Shown: positions 5,242-24,603 of the stretch, piece by piece
Layout of the letters: each line of letters starts with the position of its first letter
Position numbering within the stretch: position 1 is the stretch's first letter
NCBI GenBank assembly: GCA_035527435.1
Contig: DATLAM010000030.1
Span: forward strand, 1-24,603
Direction: 5' to 3'
DNA from: Candidatus Bathyarchaeia archaeon
GTDB taxonomy: Bacteria > Patescibacteriota > Microgenomatia > PFEM01 > DATLAM01
DNA length: 24,603 nt
Translations under genes and position numbers: made by a program
Notes under the pieces: model-generated
What the model saw: only the letters and a program-made list of their open reading frames with translations
Database searches by the model: none
What the model was told of the DNA's origin: nothing

Positions 5242-7413
5242 TTATCTGCGGCGAGAAAAACCGCGACGAGAAGAAGGACGACGGGGAGATCTTGATTGCT
5301 CTCTTGGGCGAGACATATCAGCACGCTTGGCGTCTTCGCCAAAGAGCATCGAAAGGTTAATCCTGCCCAGGTCATCAATCTCCCTTACCCTAACCTTAAC
5401 CTTTTGATCAACGCTGACAGCCTCGTTTGGATCAGCCACATACTCTGTTGACATTTGGGAAATATGGACCAAGCCTTCTTTTCCTGGAGCAATCTCAACA
5501 AAGGCGCCAAAAGGCTGAACCCTTTTAACTGTTCCCTCAAAAACTTCCCCAACTTCAACTTCCCGAGTTAGGCCCTCAATCCAGGCAATTGCCTGGTCAA
5601 CCGATTTTTTATCGGCCCCAGAAATATTGATTGTCCCATCATCTTCAACGTCAACTGTCGCTCCGGTTTTTTCAATAATTTCCCGAATTATTCGGCCCCC
5701 AGGGCCAATAACTTCGCCAATTTTATCTACTGGGATGTGCAAAATCGACACTTTGGGGGCAAACTTAGAAAGCTGGGCTCGCGAAGCAGGCAAAACCTTA
5801 AGCATTTCATCTAAAATATAAATTCGGCCCTGACGGGCTTGATCTAGCACTTTCCCAAGCACCTCAAGGGTAAGGTGGCGACTTTTAACATCCATTTGCA
5901 AGGCAGTAACCCCTTCCCGAGTCCCGGCTATCTTTAAATCCATCTCCCCATTAAAATCTTCCATTCCCAAAATATCAGAAAGAATCACCCTTTTATTTTT
6001 TTCTGAGACAAAACCCATGGCAATACCGGCAACAGGAGCTTTAATAGGAACACCGGCGTCCATTAAAGAAAGAGCAGAGCCGCAAACGGCTGCCATCGAG
6101 GTTGACCCATTGGAAGACATTATTTCAGACACGAGGCGAATGGTATAGGGTAATTTATCTTCAGGTGGAATGACTGGTTCTATAGCTTTCTCAGCCAAGG
6201 CACAATGCCCGATTTCTCTTCGGCTGGGCCAACCCAGGCGACCAGTTTCGCCTACCGAAAACGGAGGCATAGAATAATGATGAATATAGCGCTTAGTTTC
6301 TTCACCTGTCATGCTTTCAATTAACTGTCCTAGGGAGGGTGATCCAAGGGTGGTAACCGTTAAAGCCTGGGTGCTTCCTCGAGCAAAAATCGCTGAGCCG
6401 TGAGTTCGAGGCAAAACTCCCACATCAATCTTGAGGGGCCTAATTTGATCTGGCTTGCGTCCATCCGGCCGCTTGCCCTTAGTTAAAATCATCGCTCTGA
6501 TTTTCTTTTTAATTAATTGGTCAACTACCTGGCGAATCATCGCCTTTTGCTCCTCATCAAACTGCTCAGCCAACGCCATGATTATCTCTTCCAGCGCCTG
6601 GTTAGATTCTTCTTTGGTCGCCAATTTAAAAATCAATTTTTCTAAATCACTGCTAATCTCTTTCTCAATTTTTTTAACTAAGGCTGTTTCCAGTTTTTTC
6701 TCCTTAACGGGGTGTTTTTTCTTGCCAATTTCTTTTTGTAAATCTTTAATTAATTGAATTACCTTGATCGCTTCTTTCTGGGCAAAATCCAAACCTTTGA
6801 GAAGTGTTTCCTCAGAAACACTTTTGGTGCCCCCTTCAATCATCACGATTGAATCTGGGGTAGCTGAAACAACCACGTCTATCTCCGAATGTTCAAGATC
6901 TTGGGAAGTGGGATTAACAACAAAAGCCTCTTCTCCATTCCGGGGAACAAAACCGATTCGAACAGCCCCTACCGGGCCATCCCAAGGGATATCTGAAATC
7001 GCCAAAGCGGCGCTGGTGGCACAAATTGCCGGAACATCAGGATTATTCTCACTATCAACCGAAAGAACGGTAATAATAACCTGAACTTCATTGCGATACG
7101 CCTCTGGGAAAAGGGGGCGAACAGAGCGATCAATAAGCCGGGCAGTCCTGGTGGCCTCATCAGAAGGACGACCCTCTCTTTTAACCCAGCGAGAGCCCTT
7201 AATCCGACCGCCAGCATAAAGACGTTCAAGATATTCAACATAAAGAGGAAAATAATCCAGGTCTTCCCGAGGTAAAGAAGAAACAACGGTCGCCAGGACC
7301 ATGGTATCACCATAACGGCCGAGGACAGCCGCATTGGCTTGATTGGCAAAACGGCCAACTTCTAAGGTTAACTCCTTGCCGCCTATTTCAATTTTTTTGG
7401 AAACAATTTTCAC
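5242..7413 (-). CDS. pnp: Polyribonucleotide nucleotidyltransferase (PNPase)
   Basis: Two RNase PH domains (RLIDRSVRP; RTHGSAIFARG; SRREIGH; SNGSTSMA), then KH (IGPGG) and S1 domains. GTG start. Confidence 0.97.
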   Translation of the reverse strand: MKIVSKKIEIGGKELTLEVGRFANQANAAVLGRYGDTMVLATVVSSLPREDLDYFPLYVEYLERLYAGGRIKGSRWVKREGRPSDEATRTARLIDRSVRPLFPEAYRNEVQVIITVLSVDSENNPDVPAICATSAALAISDIPWDGPVGAVRIGFVPRNGEEAFVVNPTSQDLEHSEIDVVVSATPDSIVMIEGGTKSVSEETLLKGLDFAQKEAIKVIQLIKDLQKEIGKKKHPVKEKKLETALVKKIEKEISSDLEKLIFKLATKEESNQALEEIIMALAEQFDEEQKAMIRQVVDQLIKKKIRAMILTKGKRPDGRKPDQIRPLKIDVGVLPRTHGSAIFARGSTQALTVTTLGSPSLGQLIESMTGEETKRYIHHYSMPPFSVGETGRLGWPSRREIGHCALAEKAIEPVIPPEDKLPYTIRLVSEIMSSNGSTSMAAVCGSALSLMDAGVPIKAPVAGIAMGFVSEKNKRVILSDILGMEDFNGEMDLKIAGTREGVTALQMDVKSRHLTLEVLGKVLDQARQGRIYILDEMLKVLPASRAQLSKFAPKVSILHIPVDKIGEVIGPGGRIIREIIEKTGATVDVEDDGTINISGADKKSVDQAIAWIEGLTREVEVGEVFEGTVKRVQPFGAFVEIAPGKEGLVHISQMSTEYVADPNEAVSVDQKVKVRVREIDDLGRINLSMLFGEDAKRADMSRPREQSRSPRRPSSRRGFSRRR

Positions 7414-7436
7414 TGATTGGTTAATTAAAGCTGTTT

Positions 7437-7706
7437 TTATTTAGTTAGATTCAAATTTTTAATCACTTTTTTATAACGAACTTCATCTTTTTTTACTAAA
7501 AAATTCAGCAATCGCCGGCGCTTGGAAACCATCGAAAGTAAGCCTCGCCGACTGTGAACATCTTTCTTGTGTTCCTTCAGATGTTGCGTCAGTTTTTTTA
7601 CTTTAGCTGTCAAAAGAGCAATCTGGACCTCAGGCGAGCCAGTATCGTCTTTGGCGGTAGCAAACTTAGAAATCGTTTTCTTCTTTTCTTCAATGGTAAG
7701 GGCCAT
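7437..7706 (-). CDS. rpsO: 30S ribosomal protein S15
   Basis: [13 protein letters not shown] and [12 protein letters not shown] motifs. 89 aa. Confidence 0.98.
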
Positions 7707-7714
7707 CTAAAAAT

Positions 7715-7743
7715 ATTTTATCAAATAAGGGCTCTTTTAACAA
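7715..7743 (-). promoter_or_regulatory. Putative sigma70 promoter for rpsO-pnp
   Basis: TTGTTA-17 nt-TAAAAT with TG extended -10. The -10 ends 8 nt before the ATG. Confidence 0.65.
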
Positions 7744-7755
7744 GAGGTTTTTTAA

Positions 7756-8652
7756 TCAAACGCGGGTCGAGCCTTTAAAAATCTTTGGTTCAAGCCAGTC
7801 CGATGATGGTTTTTGGTCTGGCTTTGCTTCTTGCGGCGTTTTTTTGGCTGAAACCCCTGAAGGCATCGGCGATAACGACACTTCCTTTTTCGGTTTGATC
7901 GCTTTCGTTTTTACCACCGAGGCTTTGGCTCTCCGTCCGCCTACCCGAAGACAAAAAGCAACCATCTCAAAGGTTAAAGCACTTGTATTTGGCGAGCTAA
8001 AACCCTGGGTAGCTTTCTCTATTGCTAAAAGAAGATTAGTGGCAATATCTTGATCAATCGGCAACTTAAGGTTGGCCATCAGATTAGCCACAACTTCTGA
8101 GCAAGAAGAAGCGGTTGGATTAAAAAGATTAATCTTGCCAAACTGAGTATTTTGGGGATCAATATCCAAATTGATCACCGTTTTTTGCTGATAAGCTTCC
8201 TTTTCCTGGTTATAAAGACTGCCCAAATCCTCTAGCCTTTGGGCACCGATAACAAAAACCAGGTCTGAGCCGCCAGAATAGTTATAGCTGACTTTCTCAG
8301 GAGAAATGGGAGGAAGACCAGCCTTGGGCTGGATAAGAAGATTAAATTTGTGATTATCGATATTATAACTCACTTTTTCGATTGAATCCTCAATATAATC
8401 AAAAGAAATAACTAAATTCTTTCCTCCTGGTTGCTGGCTGATTTTATCAACCCCCACTAAAGAAGAAAACTCAACCGTCATCTCATCAGGAGAGGCCACG
8501 GCAACAGTTTTGCCGGCTTTTTTTAAAGAAAGAAAAAGGGCAAGAGCAGCGCCAACATGGTCAAATTTAGGCTTCTCGGGAATAGTAACCAGGATTGTTT
8601 GGGCAGAGGTCAGAGCTTGTTGGGCCGGAGCAAAATCGAATTGTTGATTCAT
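7756..8652 (-). CDS. DHH/NrnA-like protein with degenerate catalytic motifs and no DHHA1 domain
   Basis: Motif order matches the DHH N-domain (ILV...P..D.VGAALAL; DLVFVIG; INLDIDP..N..FG.IN; ASSCSE; IAT.LL.AI..AT..F), but the metal-binding D/DHH residues are replaced. Lies directly after infB, where NrnA-like genes often occur. Confidence 0.7.
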   Translation of the reverse strand: MNQQFDFAPAQQALTSAQTILVTIPEKPKFDHVGAALALFLSLKKAGKTVAVASPDEMTVEFSSLVGVDKISQQPGGKNLVISFDYIEDSIEKVSYNIDNHKFNLLIQPKAGLPPISPEKVSYNYSGGSDLVFVIGAQRLEDLGSLYNQEKEAYQQKTVINLDIDPQNTQFGKINLFNPTASSCSEVVANLMANLKLPIDQDIATNLLLAIEKATQGFSSPNTSALTFEMVAFCLRVGGRRAKASVVKTKAIKPKKEVSLSPMPSGVSAKKTPQEAKPDQKPSSDWLEPKIFKGSTRV

Positions 8653-10133
8653 GATTCTTTAGTTTTGCGGAACGATACTAACATATCCCCTAGTTTAAAG
8701 TCAAGCGGGGGGGTTAAAAGGGCGCCGAACTCTTCACCCTTTTTGGCTCTATCAACGTCTTTTTTACCTTGCTTCATTGATTTAATTCGACAGTCACCGA
8801 TTTTTTCCTTCCCTCTTCTAAGATGAAGCTTATCTCCCTTGGCAATCCTGCCCTGATTTACTTGACAACCAGCAATTTTTTCTTTGTTAATCCCAAACTC
8901 GGCAACAATCTCAGCTTGGCCAAGTTCCTCTTCGTCAGGGGTTGGTTCTGAGATCTTCAAAGCCTTTTTTTCAATCTCTTCTAAAAGCTCATAGATAATT
9001 TTATAGGTCTGAATTTTAACCCCTTCTGTTTGGGCCAATTTTTTGATCTGGGCCGGAATTTTAATATTAAAGCCTAAAAGGAAGCTGTTTGTAGCCGAGG
9101 CTAAAAGAACGTCTGAATCATTAACATCGCCAATCCCAGAAAAGATGATTTCCACTTCCTCGGGAAGGCTGGCCAAAATTGCTTCCATGGTTCCGGCGGC
9201 ATCAGCCTTAAGGATTATCCTTAGCTTTCTTGCTTCTTCGTTTTCTTCAGCTGATTTGGAAGGCTCTTTTTTGGCAACAGCTTTAACTAAATCAGGTTCC
9301 AAGGCTTTTTTATCGCCAACCTTAGTTACTTGGCTACCCGCAGGCGGCAACTCTTTAAATCCTAAAATTTCAACCGGCTTGCCTGGCCCTGCCTGTTTGA
9401 CCCTTTCTCCGTTCTCATCAATCATGGCCTTAACCTTAGCTGAAACTTTACCGGCAACAATCTTATCTTTTAAGCGTAAAGTTCCGTTTTTAACTAAAAC
9501 CGTTCCCACTGGCCCCCGAGCCCGATCAAGTTTTGATTCAATAACCACTGCCTCAAGTACTCCTCCAGGATCCGCCTTAATCTCAGCCATTTCAGCCGAA
9601 AGCAAAATCATTTCTAAAAGATCGTCAATCCCTTTACCGGTTTTAGCCGAAACCGACACAGCCACAATATCGCCTCCAAATCCCTCAACCTGAATGCCGT
9701 TTTCGGCCAAATCTTTTTTAACGCTGTCAACCATTACATTGGGAAGATCAACTTTGGTAATCGCTACCAAATAAGGAGTTTTGGCGGCCTTGATGTGTTT
9801 CAGGCTTTCTAGGGTTTGGGGTTTAACCCCTTCGTCAGCCGCCACAACTAAAACCACCAAATCGGTTGCTTCGGCTCCCCGAGCCCTCATTTTTATAAAA
9901 GCAGAATGGCCAGGGGTATCAATAAAGGTGATCATTTTCCCTTTGTGGAGAACCTGGTAGGCTCCAATATGCTGGGTAATTCCACCAGCCTCTTTAGAGG
10001 CGAGACTGGATTTTCTGATTTTGTCAAGCAAGGTGGTTTTTCCGTGGTCTACGTGGCCTAGAACCGCCACCACTGGCGGCCAAGGGAGAAGGGCTTTTTT
10101 TTTGGCAGGAGCTTTTTTCCTTTTCTTGGCCAT
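8649..10133 (-). CDS. infB: Translation initiation factor IF-2, short form
   Basis: [20 protein letters not shown] and DTPGHSAF motifs plus the C1/C2 domains. The ATG at 10133 is preferred over the track start at 10154. Confidence 0.95.
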
Positions 10134-15748: not shown

Positions 15749-15777
15749 TTGAAAAAAAAGGAAGAACTTATTATAAT
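15749..15777 (+). promoter_or_regulatory. Sigma70 promoter of the secreted-protein cluster
   Basis: TTGAAA-17 nt-TATAAT in an AT-rich region, about 50 nt upstream of the ATG at 15827. Confidence 0.7.
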
Positions 15778-15826: not shown

Positions 15827-18121
15827 ATGGGGAAGAAAAAACGAATAGCCTCTCTTTTGAGCTTATTAGTCATTAGCTTGCTCTTGGCCAGAAACAAGCC
15901 AAAAATAAAACCTGTTTCAGCCGCTCCCCCACCAATTCCCAATCCGCTAATTTTAAGTTATGGAGGATTTGATAGCGTTTTTGAGCCTACCTTGCTTAAT
16001 GAAGAAAGAGAGACTCCTGTCCCCAATGTGGTCGAGTCTCGAGTCTCGATAAATTACCCCCAAGAAGCAAAAGAAGGGGTGAAAATTCTCATTGAAAAGG
16101 GCGTTCTGCCTGCTTTCCACGTCCCCTCTCTTCCCAGAACCGGCCATACTTATTGGTGGAACGATCTGGATTGTGTCAATAACGAAGCTAATTTTGAGGC
16201 CTGTGTTCAATATAATGTTGACCTCTGGGAAAGTGCTTTTACCAACGATTTGGACGGTTTTCTTCCAGGAGGCTATAAAGCCCTTGCGGTTGACGAGATC
16301 GGTCTTTGGACTGAAGATGAAAACAGCCGGAGGACAAGAATTAAACTAGAAACTTTAAAACGGGTCAAACAAAATTACCCCGACCGATTGATTTTTGTTT
16401 GGGGCTGTTGTATTGGCTCCGAGGAAGGAACTAGCCTTTCAATTAAAACCCTTACTTATATTAAAAATTATGCCGACCGGATGATATATGAAATCTATCT
16501 TCCCGAATTGACGCCCCAAAGTAGAAGAGATTACTATTTTAGTAAATATTTTAAAAACCGTATCCTCAACTTAAAAAACGCCTGTCAAGGAAAAAGCTGT
16601 GAAGGTGTCCTGGCAAAAACGGTCATTGGCTTGGGAACGGCTGACACCGAAGATTGGGCTTACGATCGCGATCCCTCGGTTGACTTTCCTGATTTCCTTG
16701 ACGCCGAAATTCACTATATTAGAAATACCTCAATTCTAAAAGATCTACCAGGCATTGCTTTTTATTCTTACGCCCTCACCCGGCCAGAAACAATCACTTG
16801 GATTAATAAACTTGTTCGACACTACTACCTCGATCGCCAGACTTCTTTTTTAGGCGACGGAAATGATGCTTTAACTTATGTTTCCAACCCCAGCTTTGAG
16901 CAGTCTGATGGCTGGGAATTTCGACCCGGGAGCGGGGGTCAAATCACCTATAAAGACACCGCTGCGGTTGGTCTTACCACCCCCGGAAAATTACCTCGCG
17001 TCCCTCACGGCAACAGAGTTCTTTATATGAAAAAAGGATCGTCCCAGAATGTCGTCACCCAGACAATCTCTCTTTCTCCCAGAAGCTTTTACCACCTTGA
17101 CGTTTATGCCAAAAAACAAACCCCTCCTTACGAGGCAGCCCATGCTGACGTTCAGGTCATTGATGCCGCCGGGAATAGCCTAATTAGCTTCAAAGAAAAA
17201 AAAGAGGTTGATTCCAGCAGTAGGCTTGATTTTGTCGCCAAATACCATAATTGGACCCGATTTAGGATTGAATTTAAAACACCTCCAGAAATAAAGACAG
17301 TCAAAATTATTCTTTCTGATAACCAGGTAGTTCCAGGTGAAGTCACTCTTTGGGATTTTATCGAGCTGGAAAGATTAAAAGCAGGCAGCCTAACGGCTGG
17401 CCTTGGCGGCCAAAATGTCAGTCAAGAAATTTTTAAAAACCCTGGCTTTGAACAGGGGTTGTTTTATTGGCGAGAGTGGCAGGCCTACAATAATACTCTT
17501 CACGGACAGGCTGTTTCTAGCCCGGTTAAAGATGGAGCTAAGAGCCTCTTGGTCCAAAGCGATGTAGGCACCGATGTTTGGCGTCAAGACATCTTTTTGC
17601 AACCCCCTCAAGTCTACAAAATTTCAGGCTGGGTATACCTTAAAGAAACATCGGAAAACGGCAAGGCTTACCTTTATGTTAGAGGGATTAAAAACCAAGG
17701 CGGCTCCACCGATTTTTCTGTTTTGACTGATAGTTCCAGGTTGAACCAGTGGCAATACATTGAAAAAGAATTCCAGTTTGGCTGGGCATACAAAAATGTC
17801 GCCGAGGCAGCCAGTCGAACCACCGGAGCCACCAAGGCTTTTTTTGATGAGCTTAAAATTGAGGCGGGGGGTTCCGCTATTGCCACTCCCACGCCTTCTC
17901 CCCCTTCCCTGTCTCTTTCTCCTGGCTGGAATCAGGTTACCTGGCTTAATGTCGCCGGTAAAAAAGCCTCAGATATTCCTGATGCTTGCCCCATTGCCGT
18001 CTCCCAACAAAACTTCTGGTTTAAGCCTTATGTAAAGAATTTTGGTGGAGCGAATTTTGAGCTTGAGGGTGGGAAAATATATTATCTAAAATGTAATCAG
18101 GAAGTTGTTTGGACTCTTTAA
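15827..18121 (+). CDS. Exported protein A: putative glycoside-hydrolase-like barrel, two CBM4/9-like (galactose-binding fold) domains, short PT linker and shared C-terminal module
   Basis: Basic then hydrophobic N-terminus. VDEIG/MIYEIY barrel-like region. Two N-P-[SG]-F-E-initiated beta-sandwich domains (YVSNPSFEQ, IFKNPGFEQ). ATPTPSP linker. Domain calls are by pattern recognition. Confidence 0.65.
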   Translation: MGKKKRIASLLSLLVISLLLARNKPKIKPVSAAPPPIPNPLILSYGGFDSVFEPTLLNEERETPVPNVVESRVSINYPQEAKEGVKILIEKGVLPAFHVPSLPRTGHTYWWNDLDCVNNEANFEACVQYNVDLWESAFTNDLDGFLPGGYKALAVDEIGLWTEDENSRRTRIKLETLKRVKQNYPDRLIFVWGCCIGSEEGTSLSIKTLTYIKNYADRMIYEIYLPELTPQSRRDYYFSKYFKNRILNLKNACQGKSCEGVLAKTVIGLGTADTEDWAYDRDPSVDFPDFLDAEIHYIRNTSILKDLPGIAFYSYALTRPETITWINKLVRHYYLDRQTSFLGDGNDALTYVSNPSFEQSDGWEFRPGSGGQITYKDTAAVGLTTPGKLPRVPHGNRVLYMKKGSSQNVVTQTISLSPRSFYHLDVYAKKQTPPYEAAHADVQVIDAAGNSLISFKEKKEVDSSSRLDFVAKYHNWTRFRIEFKTPPEIKTVKIILSDNQVVPGEVTLWDFIELERLKAGSLTAGLGGQNVSQEIFKNPGFEQGLFYWREWQAYNNTLHGQAVSSPVKDGAKSLLVQSDVGTDVWRQDIFLQPPQVYKISGWVYLKETSENGKAYLYVRGIKNQGGSTDFSVLTDSSRLNQWQYIEKEFQFGWAYKNVAEAASRTTGATKAFFDELKIEAGGSAIATPTPSPPSLSLSPGWNQVTWLNVAGKKASDIPDACPIAVSQQNFWFKPYVKNFGGANFELEGGKIYYLKCNQEVVWTL
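17906..18121 (+). repeat. Shared 71-aa C-terminal module, copy 1
   Basis: Aligns without gaps to copies 2 and 3. 216 nt including the stop. Confidence 0.95.
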
Positions 18122-18152
18122 AAAAAGCACCAGATTTAATTCTTAAAACAAA

Positions 18153-20198
18153 ATGACCTTCAACTTGAAACAGAAAATCTTAAGACTTTCTGTTTTTATA
18201 ATTTTAATCTTTATCTTATTAATATTCCTGCTGTCTGGTAAACCAAAATTTAATTCTTGGATTGAAGCTTCATCTTTATTTCCAGTCTCGGGTCCAGTTA
18301 TCCATAGGGGAGGAACCTTAGCTGAGGTTTGGCAGGAATATGAAAACATCCCGCCAACAAGCAATCTTGATGCTCAAGTTTTCATTGACGGCAACAGTTA
18401 CGTCGTCAAAGATAATCAATATTGGTATCTGGCAAAAGATTCCAATCAATTTGTCAGTGGTTCGTTGACCCAGTTTTGGGGAAGCGAAATTAATCATCCT
18501 CCGATTGAAAAAATTGACGTCTGGACGATAACTCCCGATGGGTCTTGGATTGTCACCAAAAATGGCAGCTGGTGGCTTAAGTCTCTGGGAACAAACCAAT
18601 GGAGTAGCGGCACGCTAGCGGAAATCTGGCAAGATTATACCAATATTCCACCCACGGATGGAATTGATACCCAAGTTTATTTCTCAGATTGGACCACTTT
18701 GATCACTAAAGGTGGTAATTACTGGCGATTAAGGGCAAACTCCAAAGTTTTTGAAAGTGGAACGCTCAAAGATTTATGGAAGGAGTATTATGTTCATCCT
18801 CCAACTGACGGAATTGACGTTTACACCATAACAGGATCTTTTGAAGTGGTCACTAAAGATACTCTATATTGGGTCTTGGATAATGGTGAAAGACAAACAA
18901 AAACCTGGAAGTCTGGCAATGACTATTTTGGCCAAAGAGAACCTTACCCATATTATGATTCAACATCAGGTTGGTATTACTTATTTTATGATGGTCAGGA
19001 GGTAGGAGGAGAAAATTATGTTGTTAATACCATTAGCGTGGCTAAATCACGCTCTCCCCTTGGTCCATGGATAAAAAAACCCGTAAAAATTGAAGGTGTG
19101 ATAAGGTGGTGGGAGACATACAGCATTGGCTCACCTTGTATTTTCAAAGAAGGAAATTACTACTATATGTTTTACCTCGCCTCTGCCGGTGTCTATAATC
19201 CTGATGAACCCTTATTTAAAGTTGGAGGTGACTACCGAATTGGTTTGGCAAGAGCGACAACCCTCGATGGTTCCTGGATTAAACTTAAAGGTGACGGAAC
19301 TTTAAACCCTACTTCAAGTAATGATAAACCTCTTTTGCCACGAGGAATAGAAGATGACTATTGGGACAATATCTTCAATACAAGTTTTGTTAGTCTGCTC
19401 AAAAAAGATGGTCAATTCTTTCTTTTCTATACCGGACATGGAGATCGAGGATTTGGGGTAGGTTTAGCCAGAGCGAGTTCTATCCTGGGTCCTTATCAAA
19501 AATTAAATCCCCCAGGCAAGAATGACAATATTATTATTCCGCCGGAAGAAATGGTGGAAAACCTCAGTCTCTATTTCGATCAGCCTTCTAATTCTTGGTT
19601 TCTTTTTGGAAATTATTTGAAGATTGGTTGCGGGTGTGCCTGCCGAGGGGGACAAGGAACAGTGGTTTACCGAACTCAAGATCCTTTCAATTGGGATATT
19701 AGTAAAAAGAAATATCTGGTAATGGTTGATGAAAATTATCCGTGCCCCGCCAAGCCTTATGAAGATTTTGATATTTACAATCAACAATCAAGTCAGTTTC
19801 GAGGCCATGCAGGAGTACCGGGAATTGTTAAAGATCCCCAACAAGATCAATTGTATCTCTATTTTGATGCCAATGATTTTAATATGGCCGACCAAAACGA
19901 TCCCCAAAATCACTTTTTCAGAGACCTTTATTTAATGCAGATTCCAATTGAGCAATTGAGAGCCCTGCTTCCTTTAGGAGAAAGTTTTATTTTTTTAGAA
20001 GGCTGGAATGAGATTACCTGGCCCGCCGTGACGGGAATTAAAGCCTCAGATATTCCTCCCGAATGCCCAATTGCCGTGGCTAAAGAAAACTCCTGGTGGA
20101 AACCTTATGTGAAGAATTATGGTGGGCTGAATTTTGAGTTTGAGGGTGGGAAAATATATTATCTAAAATGTAATCAGGTAGTTGTCTGGAGCCTTTGA
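18153..20198 (+). CDS. Exported or membrane-anchored protein B: four hemopexin-like repeats, five-bladed beta-propeller glycosidase-like domain (GH43/GH32/GH117-type) and shared C-terminal module
   Basis: N-terminal TM helix. Tandem repeats of about 50 aa. Propeller blades of the type YYLFY..G / IG.A.....GPW.K recur. Confidence 0.7.
   Translation: MTFNLKQKILRLSVFIILIFILLIFLLSGKPKFNSWIEASSLFPVSGPVIHRGGTLAEVWQEYENIPPTSNLDAQVFIDGNSYVVKDNQYWYLAKDSNQFVSGSLTQFWGSEINHPPIEKIDVWTITPDGSWIVTKNGSWWLKSLGTNQWSSGTLAEIWQDYTNIPPTDGIDTQVYFSDWTTLITKGGNYWRLRANSKVFESGTLKDLWKEYYVHPPTDGIDVYTITGSFEVVTKDTLYWVLDNGERQTKTWKSGNDYFGQREPYPYYDSTSGWYYLFYDGQEVGGENYVVNTISVAKSRSPLGPWIKKPVKIEGVIRWWETYSIGSPCIFKEGNYYYMFYLASAGVYNPDEPLFKVGGDYRIGLARATTLDGSWIKLKGDGTLNPTSSNDKPLLPRGIEDDYWDNIFNTSFVSLLKKDGQFFLFYTGHGDRGFGVGLARASSILGPYQKLNPPGKNDNIIIPPEEMVENLSLYFDQPSNSWFLFGNYLKIGCGCACRGGQGTVVYRTQDPFNWDISKKKYLVMVDENYPCPAKPYEDFDIYNQQSSQFRGHAGVPGIVKDPQQDQLYLYFDANDFNMADQNDPQNHFFRDLYLMQIPIEQLRALLPLGESFIFLEGWNEITWPAVTGIKASDIPPECPIAVAKENSWWKPYVKNYGGLNFEFEGGKIYYLKCNQVVVWSL
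18312..18902 (+). repeat. Four tandem coding repeats of about 49-50 aa (hemopexin-like)
   Basis: G[TS]L...W.....[NH]..PP....[LI]D.........[VT]K...[YW]W at aa 54, 103, 153 and 203. Confidence 0.85.
19983..20198 (+). repeat. Shared 71-aa C-terminal module, copy 2
   Basis: 48/71 aa identical to copy 1. Confidence 0.95.
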
Positions 20199-20204
20199 AG
20201 TAAA

Positions 20205-21689
20205 ATGGGTAAAAAAATTTTAATATCGCTCCTTGTTCTCCTGTTTTTTGGTTTTCAGATTTCTCTCGATACCAAAGTTTTTGCTCAAAATGGCAATGTT
20301 GTTTCTTTTCGAGCGGATAGAATTGCCTTAATTAACGGTGAGCCTTTTTTCCCAATAGGCTTATTTACTGAACAAATGCCTAATTTACCAGAAGACTTCT
20401 TTGCCGAAATTTCCGACCCAGAAACAGCAGGATTTAATCTGGTTCGCCTGGTTGACACTGACGTCATCAGTAAGACTCCTGAAGACTATGCTTTTTTGTC
20501 CACCCACAACCTTAAAGCTTGGCTTACTATTAATAGTTCTTTAACCGTTGATAAAGATACCAAACTGAGAACGCTCATCGCCAATTACAAAAATGCCAAC
20601 TTCCTGCTTGCTTGGGAAGGAATAGATGAACCCTGTTATAAGTACTATAACGGCAATAGTCTTTTTGATCCAAACAAAGTTAACCAAAATTTTCCTGGAT
20701 ACCAAACCCTAAAAAATTTAGATACCAACCATCCCCTTTGGCACAACCACTGGCCCAAAGTGGGCACCGGTGGCCCTTGTGCGATACCCTGGAACATAAA
20801 CACCAATACTAATGTTAGCGGGGTTGATGTTTACCCAGTCGGCCGAAGTGACTACGAGCTAGAAGATGTTGGCTTTTTTACTGAATGGTCAAGCGAGCTT
20901 CTGACTCCCAGGGGTCCTGTTTGGATGGTACTTCAGGGCTTTGGTTGGGGTGACATTGAGGGACTTTCTGGCAGAAGACCAAATTATTCAGAAATCAGGT
21001 TTATGACCTATGACGCCCTGGTTCACAAGCAAGAAGTAAGTGACCAGATTATTCCGGGAGCCACTGGTATTTTCTATTATGGTTTAGCAATCGTTAATAA
21101 AAAAGAGTGTGGTGGTAATCCGGTCTGCGAGAAAAATGGTGATGGAATGAGAGAAACCCAAATCTTTAGTGACTTGAAAAAAATCTCTCACGAATTAAAA
21201 CAATTGGAACTGGGACTTCTCGGTCACATTAATCCAGAGTTTATCTCCAACAATAGTCAAGTTGTTGTCTTGGCTAAAGAAACAAACAACGAAACCTTTG
21301 TTTTTGTTGTTAATGAATCACCCTCTTCGCAAAATGTCACTATCCCTGGCTTTTCTGATCAATATACCGTGAAAGAATTCTTTTCGAACGAGGAGCTATT
21401 GGTTATTAACCGGAGTGCTAGCTTGACTCTTTTGCCCTATTCGGTCAAAATTCTTTGCCAAAAAGCTTCACCTTCTCTATCTCTCTCTCTTGGCTGGAAT
21501 GAGATTACCTGGGCTGACATCTCGGGCAAAAAGGCTTCGGATATTCCTCCAGAGTGCCCGATAGCCGTTAGTAAACAAAACTTCTGGTTTAAACCATATG
21601 TGAGGAATTTTGGGGGAGTTAATTTTGGTTTTGAAAATGGGAAGAGCTATTATCTAAAATGCAATCAAGAGATGATTTGGGGTTTGTGA
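20205..21689 (+). CDS. Secreted protein C: glycoside-hydrolase-like TIM barrel, small beta-sandwich and shared C-terminal module
   Basis: Signal peptide (VFA-Q). NGEPFFPIG, GFN, AWEGIDEP, DVYP, VWMVLQGFGW, ALVH and GATGIFYY motifs, then a VFVVNES beta domain. Confidence 0.7.
   Translation: MGKKILISLLVLLFFGFQISLDTKVFAQNGNVVSFRADRIALINGEPFFPIGLFTEQMPNLPEDFFAEISDPETAGFNLVRLVDTDVISKTPEDYAFLSTHNLKAWLTINSSLTVDKDTKLRTLIANYKNANFLLAWEGIDEPCYKYYNGNSLFDPNKVNQNFPGYQTLKNLDTNHPLWHNHWPKVGTGGPCAIPWNINTNTNVSGVDVYPVGRSDYELEDVGFFTEWSSELLTPRGPVWMVLQGFGWGDIEGLSGRRPNYSEIRFMTYDALVHKQEVSDQIIPGATGIFYYGLAIVNKKECGGNPVCEKNGDGMRETQIFSDLKKISHELKQLELGLLGHINPEFISNNSQVVVLAKETNNETFVFVVNESPSSQNVTIPGFSDQYTVKEFFSNEELLVINRSASLTLLPYSVKILCQKASPSLSLSLGWNEITWADISGKKASDIPPECPIAVSKQNFWFKPYVRNFGGVNFGFENGKSYYLKCNQEMIWGL
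21474..21689 (+). repeat. Shared 71-aa C-terminal module, copy 3
   Basis: 52/71 aa identical to copy 1 and 47/71 to copy 2. Confidence 0.95.
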
Positions 21690-21844
21690 AGCTTTTTCTG
21701 AATTTCTTCAAGATAAAACTTGCCGGGAAGGCTGATAATTTTTGGCAAGATTACGTTGCCGGTTTTGGAGGAAGAAATTTTGGATTGCAAAACAACCAAA
21801 ATTACTTTATAAATGTAAGTAAGAATTGTAATTGGACACCTTAA
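21686..21844 (+). pseudogene. Orphan, divergent, 5'-truncated fourth copy of the C-terminal module (52-aa ORF or gene remnant)
   Basis: KADNFWQDYVAGFGGRNFGLQNNQNYFINVSKNCNWTP aligns without gaps to module positions 34-71. GTGA overlap with the C stop and TAATG overlap with the next start. Confidence 0.7.
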
Positions 21845-23340
21845 TGATTTCTTTGAAAAAACCCATTTTTCTTTCAAAGCTTTCCAAAAAACAGCTAATC
21901 AGCCTCGCCAGTTTTTTAATAATCCTTATCTCCCTTCCTCTAGCAATTTTTCTCACTAAACAACAGCAAAGTTATCAAGGAAGGGCGGTGGGACCTGAAG
22001 CAAGACCGGCCAAAGTAAAAATCACCAATCTTCACGGCGGAGGTTTTTCTGTTTCCTGGGCTTCTGTTTCCATGAATGATGCCTACCAATTTATCGACAC
22101 CACTGGTTGGGTAGAATACGGAACCGCCCAAAACAGTCTTAACCAAACCGCTTATGACGATCGGGGTGGCGAAGATGTTTCTTCAACCACCCATCATGTT
22201 TCCATTTTTTATCTGAATCCCGATACCACCTACTATTTCAAAATTAAATCCGGGCCCTATCTTTTTGGTCTTAATGTGGCCGGTGACGGCTGGGTCAGAG
22301 GCGGCGCTGCCAAAGAACAAAAAACACCCAAAACACTTGACCTTCTCGGCAACCCTCACCCAGCCTATGGCTACATTAAAAATCAAACTGGTAATATTAT
22401 TGGCAACGCTTTAGCTTATGTTAGGCTTAAAAAAGACGGTTCTGATACCCAATCGGCCTTATTGTCGACCGTTACCAGGGCCAATGAGGGCTGGGTAGTC
22501 GACCTTAAAAACGCGAGGTCCTCCGGTTTGGGAAATTTTTTTAATTTTGATAACCAAGACCGGGTTTTAGTTGAGATTCAGGCCGCAGAAAAAGGCACCG
22601 CCTCGGCTGATTTTGCTGTCAGTGGGTCTTCGCCTGCACCAGACATTGCTCTTGCCTCTCCTACTGTTCCGACTGCCACTCAAACAATACCTCCCACGGC
22701 AACACCAACGCCAACAGGTGGCCCTGCGGCAACCTCAACTCCCACCCCCACTCCTCTTCCCACCGCTACGCCTACACCTTCACCTAAGCCAACCCCCACG
22801 CCACTGCCAACGCCTACTCCTACCCCATTACCCCCCACAGCTACCCCAACCTCAACCCCCACCCAAGTGCCAAACACAGTTAATCTTGATTTCCAAGTTA
22901 AATTCCAAGGGATCAATAACCAAAAACCAGTCAAAACAGCAAAAATTACGCTTAAAAAACCCGGCGAGTCAGAAACAGCTCATGAGGAAACTGTTAATTT
23001 TAACAGTAACCAAAGCGGCGTTTGGAGCGGTAGGATAATGAATATCTCCCCGGGCACTTACGATCTTTACATTAAGGGCTGGGCCCATTTACAAAAGAAG
23101 TTTGAAGGGATCACTCTGGCTGAGGGTGAAAATAGCCAAGATTTTTCCGGAACTAGCCTATTAGCCGGAGACATTAATGATAACAACAGAATTGAGGCGC
23201 TTGATCTGGCTATTGTTATTGAACACTACTGGCCGGATACGCCAGCCAACAGTCCGGCTGACTTTAATCTTGACGGTTCAGTCAATGCCTTAGATATTGG
23301 CTTGGTAATCGAAAACTACTTCCTAGAAGGAGATTCATGA
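21844..23340 (+). CDS. Surface protein D: Fn3/purple-acid-phosphatase-N-like domain, beta-sandwich, Pro/Thr linker, beta-sandwich and C-terminal dockerin
   Basis: TM anchor. ITNL....FSVSW...GWVEYG...HHVSI..L.PDTTYYFKI. Two EF-hand dockerin repeats, DINDNNRIEALD and DFNLDGSVNALD. The ATG at 21844 is preferred over the TTG at 21832. Confidence 0.8.
   Translation: MISLKKPIFLSKLSKKQLISLASFLIILISLPLAIFLTKQQQSYQGRAVGPEARPAKVKITNLHGGGFSVSWASVSMNDAYQFIDTTGWVEYGTAQNSLNQTAYDDRGGEDVSSTTHHVSIFYLNPDTTYYFKIKSGPYLFGLNVAGDGWVRGGAAKEQKTPKTLDLLGNPHPAYGYIKNQTGNIIGNALAYVRLKKDGSDTQSALLSTVTRANEGWVVDLKNARSSGLGNFFNFDNQDRVLVEIQAAEKGTASADFAVSGSSPAPDIALASPTVPTATQTIPPTATPTPTGGPAATSTPTPTPLPTATPTPSPKPTPTPLPTPTPTPLPPTATPTSTPTQVPNTVNLDFQVKFQGINNQKPVKTAKITLKKPGESETAHEETVNFNSNQSGVWSGRIMNISPGTYDLYIKGWAHLQKKFEGITLAEGENSQDFSGTSLLAGDINDNNRIEALDLAIVIEHYWPDTPANSPADFNLDGSVNALDIGLVIENYFLEGDS
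22657..22872 (+). repeat. Pro/Thr-rich (PT)n linker
   Basis: PTATPTPT/PTPTPLP low-complexity run of about 72 aa. Confidence 0.9.
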
Positions 23341-23906
23341 GCAAAAAATTAATCCCCGTTCTGATGGTCATTTTAGGTTCAATTTTAGCTCTCTTTTGTG
23401 TTGGTTGGAGTTTAAGCGGTAAATGGTCTTTACCGGAAAAACTCAGCCTTTTGGAGATGGTTCCCCTGCCTAAAAAAGAAATTTCTCCTAAGCTGTTCCT
23501 TTCTTTTGATCCCAAAGAAAAAACCGTTTATCAAGGCGAAAGTTTTACGGTTAACGTTTTAGCTGAAAGCGAAAGAAAGCTTCTTGCCGCTGATCTTTTT
23601 ATCACCTTTAATCCCCAGGCTTTAGAGCTGGAAAATATTAAACCTGGCGGGTTTTTTGCCTCAGCTAAAGAATTTTCCCAAAAGATTGACCTGGTCAAAG
23701 GTGAAGTTTTTTACGCCCTTGGTTCACTAGAACCCGCTGAAGAAGAAGGGGTTTTAGTTTCCCTAACTTTTAAAGCCAAAACAGGAGACCAGCAGGGGTC
23801 AATTTGGATTGGAAAAAAGACCTTGGTTTCGGCTAAAGAAGACCAAAGAGTTGACATCCAATTGCCAGATGCAGGAAAATATCTTATACTGGTAAGGAAA
23901 CAATAA
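23337..23906 (+). CDS. Membrane-anchored single-cohesin-domain protein E
   Basis: N-terminal TM. GESFTVNV, AADLFITFNP..LEL..I.PG.FF and GVLVSLTFKAK match the cohesin pattern. ATGA overlap with D. Confidence 0.75.
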   Translation: MSKKLIPVLMVILGSILALFCVGWSLSGKWSLPEKLSLLEMVPLPKKEISPKLFLSFDPKEKTVYQGESFTVNVLAESERKLLAADLFITFNPQALELENIKPGGFFASAKEFSQKIDLVKGEVFYALGSLEPAEEEGVLVSLTFKAKTGDQQGSIWIGKKTLVSAKEDQRVDIQLPDAGKYLILVRKQ

Positions 23907-23914
23907 ACAAGAAA

Positions 23915-24603
23915 ATGAAGAGAAAAGTCCTGGCCGTTTTTATCCTTCTTGTCATGCTTGCCTCTATCCCGGTTGGTGTTTTTCTGGTTAAAAAAAGACA
24001 AGAAATTCAATTAAGGGCCGCCCCAGCGACTGTTCTTTCTTTGTTCCCAGAAGTGGAAGATTACGAGGTTGATGAAGTCTTTACCTTAAATGTCAATATC
24101 GATACCGGAGAAAACTTAATTGTCAGCGCCGACATAATCTTAAATTATGATCCTTCGATTCTAGAGGGGGTAGAGGTTACCATGGGAAGCTTCCTTCCGG
24201 GTGCCCAGGAACTAAATAAAAACATTAATAATGATCTGGGAAAGATAATCTATAGTCTTTACACCACCCAAGAAAACGCCCAACAAGGCGGAGGGGCACT
24301 TGTCTCAATCACTTTCAAGGGGGTCGCGCCGGGAACAAGCACGGTTGTCATCGATAAATCCCTGTCTCTGATTGGCGGGCTTGGAGAGAAAGGTCAAAAT
24401 TTGCTCGTTAGCGCCACTGACAGTTCCTATTTGATTGCTGATGCTGAATCCCAACCAACAATCACTCCCACTCAGACACTTACTCCCACCCCTATCGGAG
24501 TAGGAGGCGGCGAGGAGCCAACAGCCACCCCGACACCAACCACTACTGACCAGGATTTGGACGACGAAAACGGTACGGGTGGAGGGACTGAGCCAACAGC
24601 CAC
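23915..24603 (+). CDS. Cohesin-domain surface protein F with PT/acidic linker; 3'-truncated by the window edge; absent from the ORF track
   Basis: Manual translation gives MKRKVLAVFILLVMLASIPVGVFLVKKRQEIQLRA, FTLNVNIDTG, SADIILNYDPSILE and GALVSITFKG, then PTITPTQTLTPTP. No stop before the edge. Confidence 0.8.
   Translation, partial: MKRKVLAVFILLVMLASIPVGVFLVKKRQEIQLRAAPATVLSLFPEVEDYEVDEVFTLNVNIDTGENLIVSADIILNYDPSILEGVEVTMGSFLPGAQELNKNINNDLGKIIYSLYTTQENAQQGGGALVSITFKGVAPGTSTVVIDKSLSLIGGLGEKGQNLLVSATDSSYLIADAESQPTITPTQTLTPTPIGVGGGEEPTATPTPTTTDQDLDDENGTGGGTEPTA

What the first reader, a model, noticed from the sequence alone, without database searches (positions are those of the whole stretch)
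15827..21844. Three unrelated exported glycan-active proteins share one conserved 71-aa C-terminal module: candidate new sorting or docking domain
Seen: ORFs at 15827, 18153 and 20205 have dissimilar passenger regions, yet end in an indel-free 216-nt segment with 41/71 residues invariant and 66-73% pairwise identity. It includes two Cys (CPIAV, LKCNQ) and a terminal W-x-L. Inference: a terminal tag on different secreted passengers behaves like a sorting or anchoring signal or a scaffold-docking domain, by analogy to the T9SS CTD, dockerin or SLH. It matches none of those by eye. The Cys pair may form a disulfide. The GWN...Y motif loosely recalls unnamed GWNL...GYW beta-rich tails of some surface proteins, so it may be a branch of that group.
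Basis: partly seen in the sequence, partly recalled or inferred. Interest (0 to 1): 0.88.

Follow-up and report, generated by a model that had tools for sequence, protein, structure and literature searches.

The report
New enzyme-docking tail and its receptor
Three unrelated secreted sugar-degrading enzymes of an ultra-small (CPR) bacterium end in the same uncatalogued 71-residue domain. Gene order, gene fusions and a structure prediction all suggest that this domain plugs them into a membrane-anchored receptor encoded next door, in the manner of a cellulosome but with different parts.

Summary
ORFs A (15827-18121), B (18153-20198) and C (20205-21689) resemble each other only in their last ~71 residues (BLASTP E 3e-28 to 3e-34). 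A fourth, decayed copy lies at 21701-21844.

The module matches nothing in Pfam, NCBIfam or PDB sequences and has no solved fold relative (best Z 4.8). It belongs to a larger unnamed 'GWN...GYF' tail superfamily: 336 clusters, with the last copy within 5 residues of the C-terminus in 148 of 158 proteins.

Its likely partner is the next gene, D (21844-23340). D has an N-terminal anchor, a conserved FN3-like ectodomain and a dockerin. Four lines point to D:
- The complex prediction scores 0.88 against a best control of 0.01, and the score is lost when D is replaced.
- A D-like gene is adjacent to, or fused with, a module gene in 22 of 31 genomes checked.
- D proper and the close module type occur in the same 2 of 401 class genomes.
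- The sister genome has an enzyme fused directly to a dockerin at this locus instead.

My reading is that the module docks enzymes onto D, and D plugs into the membrane cohesins E and F. All of this is computational; binding is not shown. The rival readings are a glycan-binding or cell-wall-binding module, or an assembly partner.

The parts
15749..15777 (+). Best promoter-like site upstream of gene A (TTGAAA-17-TATAAT), in the divergent hrcA/A intergenic region.
   Evidence: 11 of 12 consensus positions. This is a consensus match only.
15827..18121 (+). Gene A, 764 aa. Signal/anchor, unknown N-terminal region, CBM_4_9-type domains (aa 534-652), P/T/S linker, C-terminal module.
17906..18118 (+). 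Type-1 module of A (aa 694-764). The predicted receptor-contact core is QQNFWFKPYV-NFGGA (aa 727-742, nt 18005-18052).
18153..20198 (+). Gene B, 681 aa. Signal anchor, four ~50-aa N-terminal repeats, GH43/32/130-like region (a lead only), C-terminal module.
19983..20195 (+). Type-1 module of B (aa 611-681).
20205..21689 (+). Gene C, 494 aa. Cleavable-looking signal peptide, GH42-like barrel plus a Malt_amylase_C-like sandwich, C-terminal module.
21474..21686 (+). Type-1 module of C (aa 424-494).
21701..21844 (+). Relic of a fourth gene: the last ~47 codons of a type-2 module with no passenger left. Its TAA (21842-21844) overlaps the ATG of D (TAATG).
   Evidence: independent E 5e-12. In loci L010 and L013 an intact gene with a type-2 module occupies this position.
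21844..23340 (+). Gene D, the proposed receptor/adaptor. It has an N-terminal hydrophobic anchor, a conserved two-sandwich ectodomain (nt 21979-22647), a P/T linker, an Ig-like domain and a type I dockerin (nt 23164-23313). The ORF call begins at TTG 21832; ATG 21844 is the more likely start.
23337..23906 (+). Gene E, 189 aa: N-terminal membrane anchor plus one cohesin domain (nt 23517-23858).
23915..24601 (+). Gene F (cut by the window end): N-terminal anchor, one cohesin domain (nt 24050-24361) and a P/T linker.

Best explanation
The 71-residue tail is a protein-docking module. Enzymes A, B and C are exported by their N-terminal Sec-type signals (inferred from sequence). Outside the cell the tail folds into a small six-stranded beta domain, probably locked by one disulfide (inferred).

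Its conserved W-[FW]-x-x-[YF]-V-x-N-[FY]-G-G face is predicted to sit in the cleft between the two beta-sandwich subdomains of protein D's ectodomain. There it contacts D's invariant NLHGGG, GNPxPxYG and EGWV(V/M)DxKN motifs (predicted, not measured). D is held at the cell surface by its N-terminal hydrophobic segment and/or by its C-terminal dockerin bound to the membrane-anchored cohesins E and F (a textbook pairing, inferred here).

The outcome would be a cellulosome-like display of interchangeable polysaccharide-degrading enzymes on an ultra-small cell, built from a docking pair that is not homologous to cohesin-dockerin. D acts as an adaptor between the two systems. The same tail-plus-receptor pairing, usually with the tail duplicated in tandem, recurs across Patescibacteria on giant adhesin-like proteins and peptidases.
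For: (1) Complex prediction. The chains were the D ectodomain, the E cohesin and the module. The score was 0.88 and the best of 3 controls was 0.01. That mark was reached by 58 of 80 solved complexes and 2 of 110 mismatched pairs. The runs share at least 94% of their contacts, and the partner's pLDDT is at least 82. Replacing D alone drops the score to 0.01. No solved relative of the module exists, so the pass is unlikely to come from memory.

(2) Interface conservation. 21 of 29 predicted D contacts are invariant, against 111 of 223 overall (one-sided p = 0.007). The GWxxDLxNxR motif at the interface is the hallmark of all D-like proteins.

(3) Conserved neighbourhood. D directly follows the module-gene array in the window, in G072/L009, in L010/L011 and in L013. 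A small D-like gene lies immediately next to the tandem-module gene, in varying order, in 5 of 5 distant class genomes, and also in L022 and L024. In a phylum sample it lies directly downstream in 12 of 24 genomes.

(4) Fusions. A D-like ectodomain and the modules share one polypeptide in P0116, P0130 and P0142 and in G726, G702 and G678.

(5) Co-occurrence. Among 401 class genomes, D proper (E ~1e-134, next best 4e-31) and the close-type module are found in the same two genomes, G000 and G072.

(6) Natural swap. In the sister genus G001 (DnaK 91% identical), the same locus has a GH-A-type enzyme fused directly to a dockerin, then the two cohesins, with no D and no module.

(7) Terminal position in 148 of 158 proteins. 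Passengers of the close family are mainly CAZymes: GH39, GH42, GH5, GH43 and polysaccharide lyases.

(8) Paired gain and loss of the two Cys: 114 domains have two, 96 have none and 11 have one.
Against: All evidence is computational.

- The complex job used three chains and my own shallow alignments (4, 3 and 21 rows), which differs from the tool's calibration.
- Only the type-1 module was tested.
- D-like proteins occur in 302 of 401 class genomes, mostly as a paralog next to pilN/pilO with no module nearby. The D fold therefore has other roles.
- In 7 of 24 phylum genomes no D-like gene lies within about 5 kb of the module gene, and none was found at L025.
- Related genomes are not independent samples.
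- G072 has modules and D but no cohesin or dockerin, so the cohesin link is not essential.
- A conserved aromatic-rich tail on glycoside hydrolases is also what a carbohydrate-binding module looks like.
Confidence: 0.55

Rival explanations
1. The tail is a carbohydrate-binding module. It targets the enzymes either to their polysaccharide substrate or to a glycan of the cell's own (or the host's) envelope. D is merely a co-regulated neighbour.
For: The close family sits almost only on CAZyme-type passengers. It is a small beta domain behind P/T/S linkers with conserved W, Y and F residues. Many polysaccharide degraders put one CBM type on many different enzymes (established knowledge of CBM2 and CBM10 systems). 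There are weak structural echoes of CBM64 (Z 3.6) and CBM_E1 (Z 3.1).
Against: No CBM model matches, even at E up to 10. The wider family sits on PKD, cadherin and Ig adhesin-like proteins and on peptidases rather than on CAZymes. The near-absolute C-terminal position is unusual for CBMs. This reading does not explain the D-like adjacency and fusions, nor a predicted complex that is lost when D is replaced. A already carries CBM_4_9 domains.
Confidence: 0.17
2. The D-like protein is an assembly, folding or export helper for tail-bearing proteins (a chaperone/usher-like relation, or intramolecular packing as in the fused forms), not a surface anchor. The contact would be transient or structural.
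For: The fusions place the D-like domain directly before the tandem tails. The tandem tails pack as one rigid unit (pTM 0.89). D-like paralogs sit beside the pilN/pilO pilus-assembly genes in most class genomes.
Against: D-like proteins contain only beta-sandwich domains plus a membrane anchor, with no enzyme or ATPase domain. D here carries a dockerin next to two cohesin genes, which fits a scaffold. In G001 the enzyme itself carries the dockerin, so D plus tail replaces a docking function.
Confidence: 0.12
3. The tail is a secretion or sorting signal recognised and possibly cleaved by a dedicated machinery, like the T9SS C-terminal domain.
For: Extreme C-terminal position in 94% of proteins. 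It is a folded ~70-80 aa beta domain on many unrelated passengers. Structure searches return tails of gingipain-, M14- and PAD-type proteins from T9SS-bearing phyla at TM about 0.75.
Against: No Por_Secre_tail match in the proteins or in genomes G000, G001 and G072. The passengers already have Sec-type N-termini. These genomes are 0.5-1.3 Mb, typical of CPR, in which T9SS has not been described (my own knowledge). The same fold occurs in archaea. No candidate machinery is conserved next to the genes; only D-like genes are.
Confidence: 0.05
4. The tail docks directly on the cohesins E and F as a non-canonical dockerin.
For: The module-gene array lies two genes upstream of two cohesin genes in four loci.
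Against: G072 is 96% complete and has three tail-bearing genes and D, but no cohesin or dockerin match. D itself carries the canonical dockerin. No Dockerin_1 match to the tail.
Confidence: 0.03

Closest known systems
Cohesin-dockerin (cellulosome) docking system
   Same: A short C-terminal module shared by otherwise unrelated secreted polysaccharide-degrading enzymes. A partner domain on a surface-anchored scaffold is encoded in the same cluster. The enzyme repertoire is interchangeable. In the sister genome a real dockerin occupies the equivalent place on an enzyme.
   Different: There is no sequence relation to Dockerin_1. The module is predicted to be a six-stranded beta domain, not a Ca-binding helical pair. 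The proposed receptor is an FN3-like plus second-sandwich ectodomain, not a cohesin. Here the two systems appear to be wired in series through D.
WxL-domain proteins and csc cell-surface clusters of lactobacilli and enterococci (Siezen et al. 2006, PMC1534035)
   Same: Clusters of Sec-exported surface proteins proposed to form complexes for carbohydrate acquisition. They carry a novel C-terminal domain, and partner proteins carry the membrane or wall anchors (abstract of PMC1534035). The window's tail also ends in W-x-L.
   Different: No Pfam match of any kind to the tail at E up to 10. There is only one terminal W-x-L, not the paired motifs of the much longer WxL domain (my own knowledge). 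The phylum and the partner family are different.
T9SS C-terminal domain (Por_Secre_tail)
   Same: A folded ~75-aa beta domain at the extreme C-terminus of many unrelated secreted proteins.
   Different: No profile match in the proteins or genomes. The passengers rely on Sec-type signals, no machinery is in evidence, and the module is proposed to stay on as a docking device rather than be removed.
Unnamed 'GWN(L/I)...G(Y/F)(F/Y)(V/I/L)K' C-terminal tails of CPR, Chloroflexota and archaeal surface proteins
   Same: The window's module is a profile-level member. A profile built from it finds 336 clusters at E <= 1e-3. The tandem-pair profile hits the type-1 modules back at E 5e-7 to 6e-9 and the window itself at 8e-8. 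Predicted folds agree at TM 0.73-0.84.
   Different: The window's branch is single-copy, lacks the helix of the tandem forms, carries a Cys pair, and is specialised on CAZymes. The superfamily has no Pfam or NCBIfam model in the copies searched.

Membership tests
Dockerin type I (PF00404) | Match to the Dockerin_1 profile (duplicated Ca-binding loop-helix). | tested here: not met
   No hit to any of the three tails at E up to 10. Protein D in the same window matches at E 3.2e-9, which serves as a positive control.
T9SS C-terminal domain (PF18962 / TIGR04183) | Match to the Por_Secre_tail profile. | tested here: not met
   No hit in the proteins or in six-frame searches of G000, G001 and G072.
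T9SS C-terminal domain (PF18962 / TIGR04183) | T9SS machinery (for example SprA) present in the genome. | tested here: inconclusive
   The SprA_N search found nothing, but it also rang in none of the control genomes. G000 is only 66% complete.
SLH and WxL cell-wall anchoring domains | Match to the family profile, and repeated motifs (three SLH repeats, or two WxL motifs). | tested here: not met
   The Pfam scan of the tails returned no family at all at E up to 10. The sequence shows a single terminal W-x-L.
Carbohydrate-binding modules (Pfam CBM families; solved CBM folds) | Profile match or clear fold match to a catalogued CBM. | tested here: inconclusive
   No Pfam CBM hit on the tail. Only weak fold echoes were found: CBM64 at Z 3.6 (rmsd 3.2 over 58 residues) and CBM_E1 at Z 3.1. 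A missing match does not exclude a new CBM.
Carbohydrate-binding modules (Pfam CBM families; solved CBM folds) | Demonstrated sugar binding. | not testable with these tools
   Requires glycan arrays or polysaccharide pull-downs.
Unnamed GWN...GYF C-terminal tail superfamily | Reciprocal profile similarity, shared motifs (GWN strand, W-x-x-[YF]-V, G-x-[ND]-F, G-Y-[FY]-[VIL]-K) and C-terminal position. | tested here: met
   In 148 of 158 proteins the last copy ends within 5 residues of the C-terminus.
Cohesin-dockerin pair for D, E and F | Profile matches above the curated cut-offs. | tested here: met
   D: Dockerin_1, 37.3 bits against a cut-off of 22.9. E and F: Cohesin, 42.9 and 41.2 bits against a cut-off of 24.1. 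Actual binding was not tested.
Proposed tail / D-like receptor docking pair | Physical binding of the tail to the D ectodomain. | tested here: inconclusive
   Prediction only. Score 0.88, best of 3 controls 0.01; the mark was reached by 58 of 80 solved complexes and 2 of 110 mismatched pairs; contact agreement at least 94%; partner pLDDT at least 82. The model supports binding but does not show it.

The most novel reading that the evidence does not exclude
Patescibacteria (CPR) possess a phylum-wide two-component surface-docking system that is not homologous to cohesin-dockerin. The first component is a C-terminal 'GWN' beta-tail, single or in tandem, on cargo that ranges from glycoside hydrolases to adhesin-like giants of over 2000 aa. 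The second is a small membrane-anchored FN3-like receptor encoded next to the cargo gene or fused to it. In this genome the receptor has acquired a dockerin, so the new system is coupled in series to a classical cohesin-dockerin pair. This would be the first case of an adaptor joining two unrelated docking chemistries.
Probability: 0.45. Interest if true: 0.88.

Novelty: new variant of a known kind. Interest (0 to 1): 0.78.

Why it matters
CPR bacteria are ultra-small, mostly uncultured, and thought to live attached to other cells. How they keep enzymes and adhesins on their surface is largely unknown.

If confirmed, this would be a compact, modular docking pair that evolved independently of cohesin-dockerin. 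It would explain how these cells display interchangeable polysaccharide-degrading enzymes and giant surface proteins. It would also assign a role to two uncatalogued domain families: 336 tail clusters at 50% identity, and D-like proteins in about three quarters of the genomes of the class. Finally, it would add a new orthogonal pair of parts (71 aa and about 220 aa) for designer enzyme scaffolds.

The sister-genome comparison, in which a dockerin-fused enzyme stands in place of tail plus adaptor, gives a ready-made evolutionary test case.

Tried and rejected
**Library searches on the tail (all negative)**
- Pfam at E up to 10, and NCBIfam, on the window tails and on distant copies: nothing.
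- PDB by sequence profile: only E 0.25 noise.
- Foldseek against PDB, Swiss-Prot models and viral models: nothing better than E 0.24.
- Exhaustive VIA search of 48,161 chains. The best hits were RCK_C/TrkA_C domains, at Z 4.8 (rmsd 2.9 over 61 residues) for the single module and Z 4.9 for the tandem pair. This is below the tool's noise level, so I treat it as a shared topology at most.

**Literature**
- Searches for the GWNL motifs, for CPR with cohesin/dockerin, for Microgenomates with dockerin, and for Patescibacteria surface-domain terms found no description of this domain.

**Partner tests**
- Cohesin E was included as a chain in the complex job. With D replaced, the module scored 0.01, so there is no support for cohesin binding. 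That result is not evidence against it.

**Dead ends**
- The four GWN motifs in P0019 looked like tandem modules but belong to a different 61-aa repeat.
- I suspected that the pilO-adjacent D paralog might have hidden tail-bearing neighbours. None was detected, even with filters off.
- The genome contigs pattern scan returned only one locus (G072) and was not informative on spread.
- The SprA search was uninformative because its controls were silent.
- Concerted evolution or recent duplication of the tails was rejected as the main cause of their similarity. dS is 0.6-1.4, and tails within the genome are no closer to each other than to tails from other genomes.
- Terminator-like sites are not above the shuffled expectation.

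Full report
**1. The observation**

The window carries three same-strand ORFs: A (15827-18121, 764 aa), B (18153-20198, 681 aa) and C (20205-21689, 494 aa). Each begins with a hydrophobic Sec-type signal or anchor.

Their last ~71 residues align without gaps and have 41 invariant positions. The DNA aligns without gaps over the last ~213-216 nt. BLASTP finds only this tail (65-74% identity, E 3e-28 to 3e-34); everything else scores E > 0.6.

Nucleotide similarity starts about 210 nt before the stop codon and ends at it. dN/dS is 0.17-0.40 and dS is 0.6-1.4. The tail is therefore old and under purifying selection, not a recent duplication.

A six-frame profile search of the whole 452-kb assembly finds the three copies plus a fourth, partial one at about 21701-21841.

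**2. What the passengers are**

- A has CBM_4_9-type domains.
- B's core resembles GH43/32/130 propellers by language-model features.
- C's passenger matches GH42-like barrels by predicted structure and has a Malt_amylase_C-like sandwich.

Across 61 close relatives of the tail from metagenomes, the passengers are mostly CAZymes. They include GH39, GH42, GH5, GH43, polysaccharide lyases, beta-helix proteins, DUF4832/4874 and GxGYxYP proteins.

**3. The tail is uncatalogued but has a large family**

Pfam and NCBIfam give no hit, even at permissive thresholds. A PDB sequence-profile search also gives none.

AlphaFold2 with a 21-sequence alignment gives a six-stranded beta domain (pLDDT 82.6). Foldseek against PDB, Swiss-Prot models and viral models finds nothing. 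An exhaustive structural scan peaks at Z 4.8, on RCK_C domains, which is below the tool's noise level.

By contrast, AlphaFold DB clusters and the ESM Atlas contain many unnamed tails with the same fold (TM 0.73-0.84). They sit on PKD, gingipain, M14, M10, CAP, PAD and other secreted proteins of bacteria and archaea.

A profile search of 1.84 billion representatives finds 336 clusters at E <= 1e-3. Close relatives carry one copy and distant ones carry a tandem pair. In 148 of 158 proteins the last copy ends within five residues of the C-terminus.

Two subtypes occur in the close family. Type 1 is the form on A, B and C. Type 2 has a longer loop and ends in ...C-x-W-x-[LP].

The two Cys are present together or absent together: 114 domains have two, 96 have none and 11 have one. 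This fits a disulfide and an extracytoplasmic location.

The tandem pair folds as one rigid unit (pLDDT 95, pTM 0.89) and also has no solved relative. Distant members carry adhesin-like domains (PKD, cadherin, Ig) and peptidases rather than CAZymes. One of them belongs to Candidatus Blackburnbacteria. The window's relatives have genomes of 0.5-1.3 Mb at over 90% completeness, which is typical of CPR/Patescibacteria.

**4. The neighbourhood**

Upstream, on the other strand, lie hrcA-grpE-dnaK-dnaJ, nusA, infB and pnp. Downstream, on the same strand with overlaps or gaps of a few bases, lie three genes:
- D (21844-23340), with an anchor, an FN3-like ectodomain, a P/T linker, an Ig-like domain and a type I dockerin.
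- E, with an anchor and a cohesin.
- F, with an anchor and a cohesin.

The same order is found in metagenome loci L010/L011 and L013 and in genome G072: hrcA, then an array of tail-bearing enzymes, then D, and later murJ, S20, pilN and pilO. L010/L011 and L013 also keep the two cohesin genes after D; G072 has none. The number and kind of enzymes in the array vary.

The gene just before D always carries a type-2 tail. In the window only its last ~47 codons survive, and its stop codon still overlaps D's start (TAATG). The fourth gene was therefore lost by deletion.

**5. Evidence that D is the partner**

(a) *Conservation of D.* D's ectodomain is 58-66% identical between G000 and G072, whose DnaK proteins are 75-77% identical.

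(b) *Complex prediction.* The chains were the D ectodomain, the E cohesin and the tail. The model supports binding: score 0.88, best of 3 controls 0.01. That mark was reached by 58 of 80 solved complexes and 2 of 110 mismatched pairs. The runs agree in at least 94% of contacts, and the partner's pLDDT is at least 82. Replacing D alone abolishes the score. The caveats are that three chains and my own shallow alignments differ from the calibration.

(c) *The predicted interface.* It uses the tail's most conserved stretch (W10, then residues 36-45 and 47-51 of the 73-residue piece). On D it uses 29 residues, of which 21 are invariant, against 111 of 223 overall (p = 0.007). These include the GWxxDLxNxR motif common to all D-like proteins.

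(d) *Co-occurrence.* D-like ectodomains occur in 302 of 401 genomes of the class, mostly as a paralog beside pilN/pilO. D proper (about 441-445 bits, next best 107) occurs only in G000 and G072. These are the only two genomes with the close-type tail.

(e) *Adjacency in distant class genomes.* In all five class genomes with distant tandem tails, a small anchored D-like gene lies immediately next to the tail-bearing gene, upstream or downstream. The same holds in the Blackburnbacteria locus and in L024.

(f) *Adjacency across the phylum.* In a phylum-wide sample the tandem tail occurs in 25 of 401 genomes, counting the window's own, and in 18 of 19 genomes of one family. Among the other 24, a D-like gene lies directly downstream in 12. 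The D-like domain is fused into the tail-bearing protein in three more. Fusions also occur in P0116, P0130 and P0142.

(g) *A natural swap.* In the sister genus G001 (DnaK 91% identical, 93% complete) the same locus encodes a GH-A-type enzyme fused directly to a dockerin. It is followed by the two cohesins and a GH39, with no D proper and no tail. Tail plus D thus occupies the functional slot of a dockerin.

**6. Mechanism proposed**

The proposed steps are:
1. Sec export of the enzymes (inferred).
2. Folding of the tail outside the cell, with a disulfide (inferred).
3. Docking of the tail into the cleft between D's two sandwich subdomains (predicted).
4. Retention of D by its N-terminal hydrophobic segment and/or by its dockerin on the anchored cohesins E and F (inferred from family knowledge).

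G072 lacks cohesin and dockerin. The tail-D pair is therefore the core of the system, and the cohesin link is an add-on in this lineage.

**7. Limits and rivals**

Nothing has been measured. D-like proteins clearly have other roles: the pilN/pilO paralog has no tail-bearing neighbour. In 7 of 24 phylum genomes no D-like gene lies within about 5 kb, and one metagenome locus also lacks one.

A glycan-binding role, towards the substrate or the cell wall, remains the main rival. It fits the CAZyme bias and the aromatic conservation, but it does not explain the adjacency, the fusions or the D-dependent predicted complex. An assembly-helper role for D, a sorting signal, and direct cohesin binding are less likely. 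They are treated in the rival explanations.

**8. Comparison and novelty**

The system works like cohesin-dockerin. It also resembles in concept the WxL/csc surface clusters proposed for carbohydrate acquisition (PMC1534035). It fails the membership tests for dockerin, T9SS CTD, SLH and WxL.

I found no description of the tail, of the D-like family as its partner, or of an adaptor joining it to a cohesin system. I rate it a new variant of a known kind: modular surface docking built from new parts. My confidence in the docking reading is about 0.55.

Noticed in passing
window 21690-21844: The 154-nt 'intergenic' gap between C and D is the 3' relic of a lost fourth enzyme gene with a type-2 tail. 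Its stop codon still overlaps D's ATG (TAATG). Intact counterparts exist in L010 (599-aa frame) and L013 (867-aa frame, GH39).
   Followed up: yes
L016 (G001:C1:105000-122000), 5430-9981: The sister genus has, at the same site, a GH5/39/42-like enzyme with its own dockerin, then two cohesin genes and a GH39. It has no D proper and no tail. This is a natural swap of docking devices.
   Followed up: partly
class-level genomes; e.g. L016 13604-15028, L010 20397-21758: A ~450-aa paralog of D (FN3-like, CarboxypepD_reg-like and Big_13 domains) sits just after pilN-pilO in most genomes of the class; D-like hits occur in 302 of 401 genomes. Its neighbours carry no tail and its role is unknown. A link to type IV pili is possible.
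   Followed up: partly
window 18060-18090 vs 20137-20167: One 30-nt window near the 3' end of the A and B tails, ending 30 nt before the stop codon, is 97% identical at the DNA level, against 76% for the whole tail. The A/B dS (0.57) is lower than that of the other pairs. A short gene-conversion tract is possible.
   Followed up: no
window 18153-18870 (B, aa ~50-240): B's N-terminal part contains four ~50-aa repeats (G-T-L-x-x-x-W-x-x-Y-x-x-x-P-P-T-x-G-I-D...) with no Pfam match.
   Followed up: no
P0019 aa 300-495: A tail-bearing relative from NCBI has three 61-aa repeats (GPGPYDAYGAF...GWNRKVPL...) that mimic the GWN motif but are a different, unnamed repeat.
   Followed up: partly
L009 (CAYGWK010000001.1): The public record of G072 is titled 'uncultured Gammaproteobacteria bacterium'. 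However, it is placed in the same class as the window's genome, is about 0.7 Mb at 96% completeness, and shares the window's synteny. This is probably a mislabelled CPR MAG.
   Followed up: no
G702:C2:93162-93689, G625:C1:307036-310213, G550:C1:10624-11148, G738:C2:34448-34975: Secondary copies of tandem-tail genes in several genomes of family f85 contain a single in-frame TAA or TAG. They may be decaying paralogs, as in the window's relic, or assembly errors.
   Followed up: no
window 21832-21846: The ORF call for D starts at TTG 21832. The homologues and the overlap with the relic's stop codon favour ATG 21844 as the true start.
   Followed up: partly
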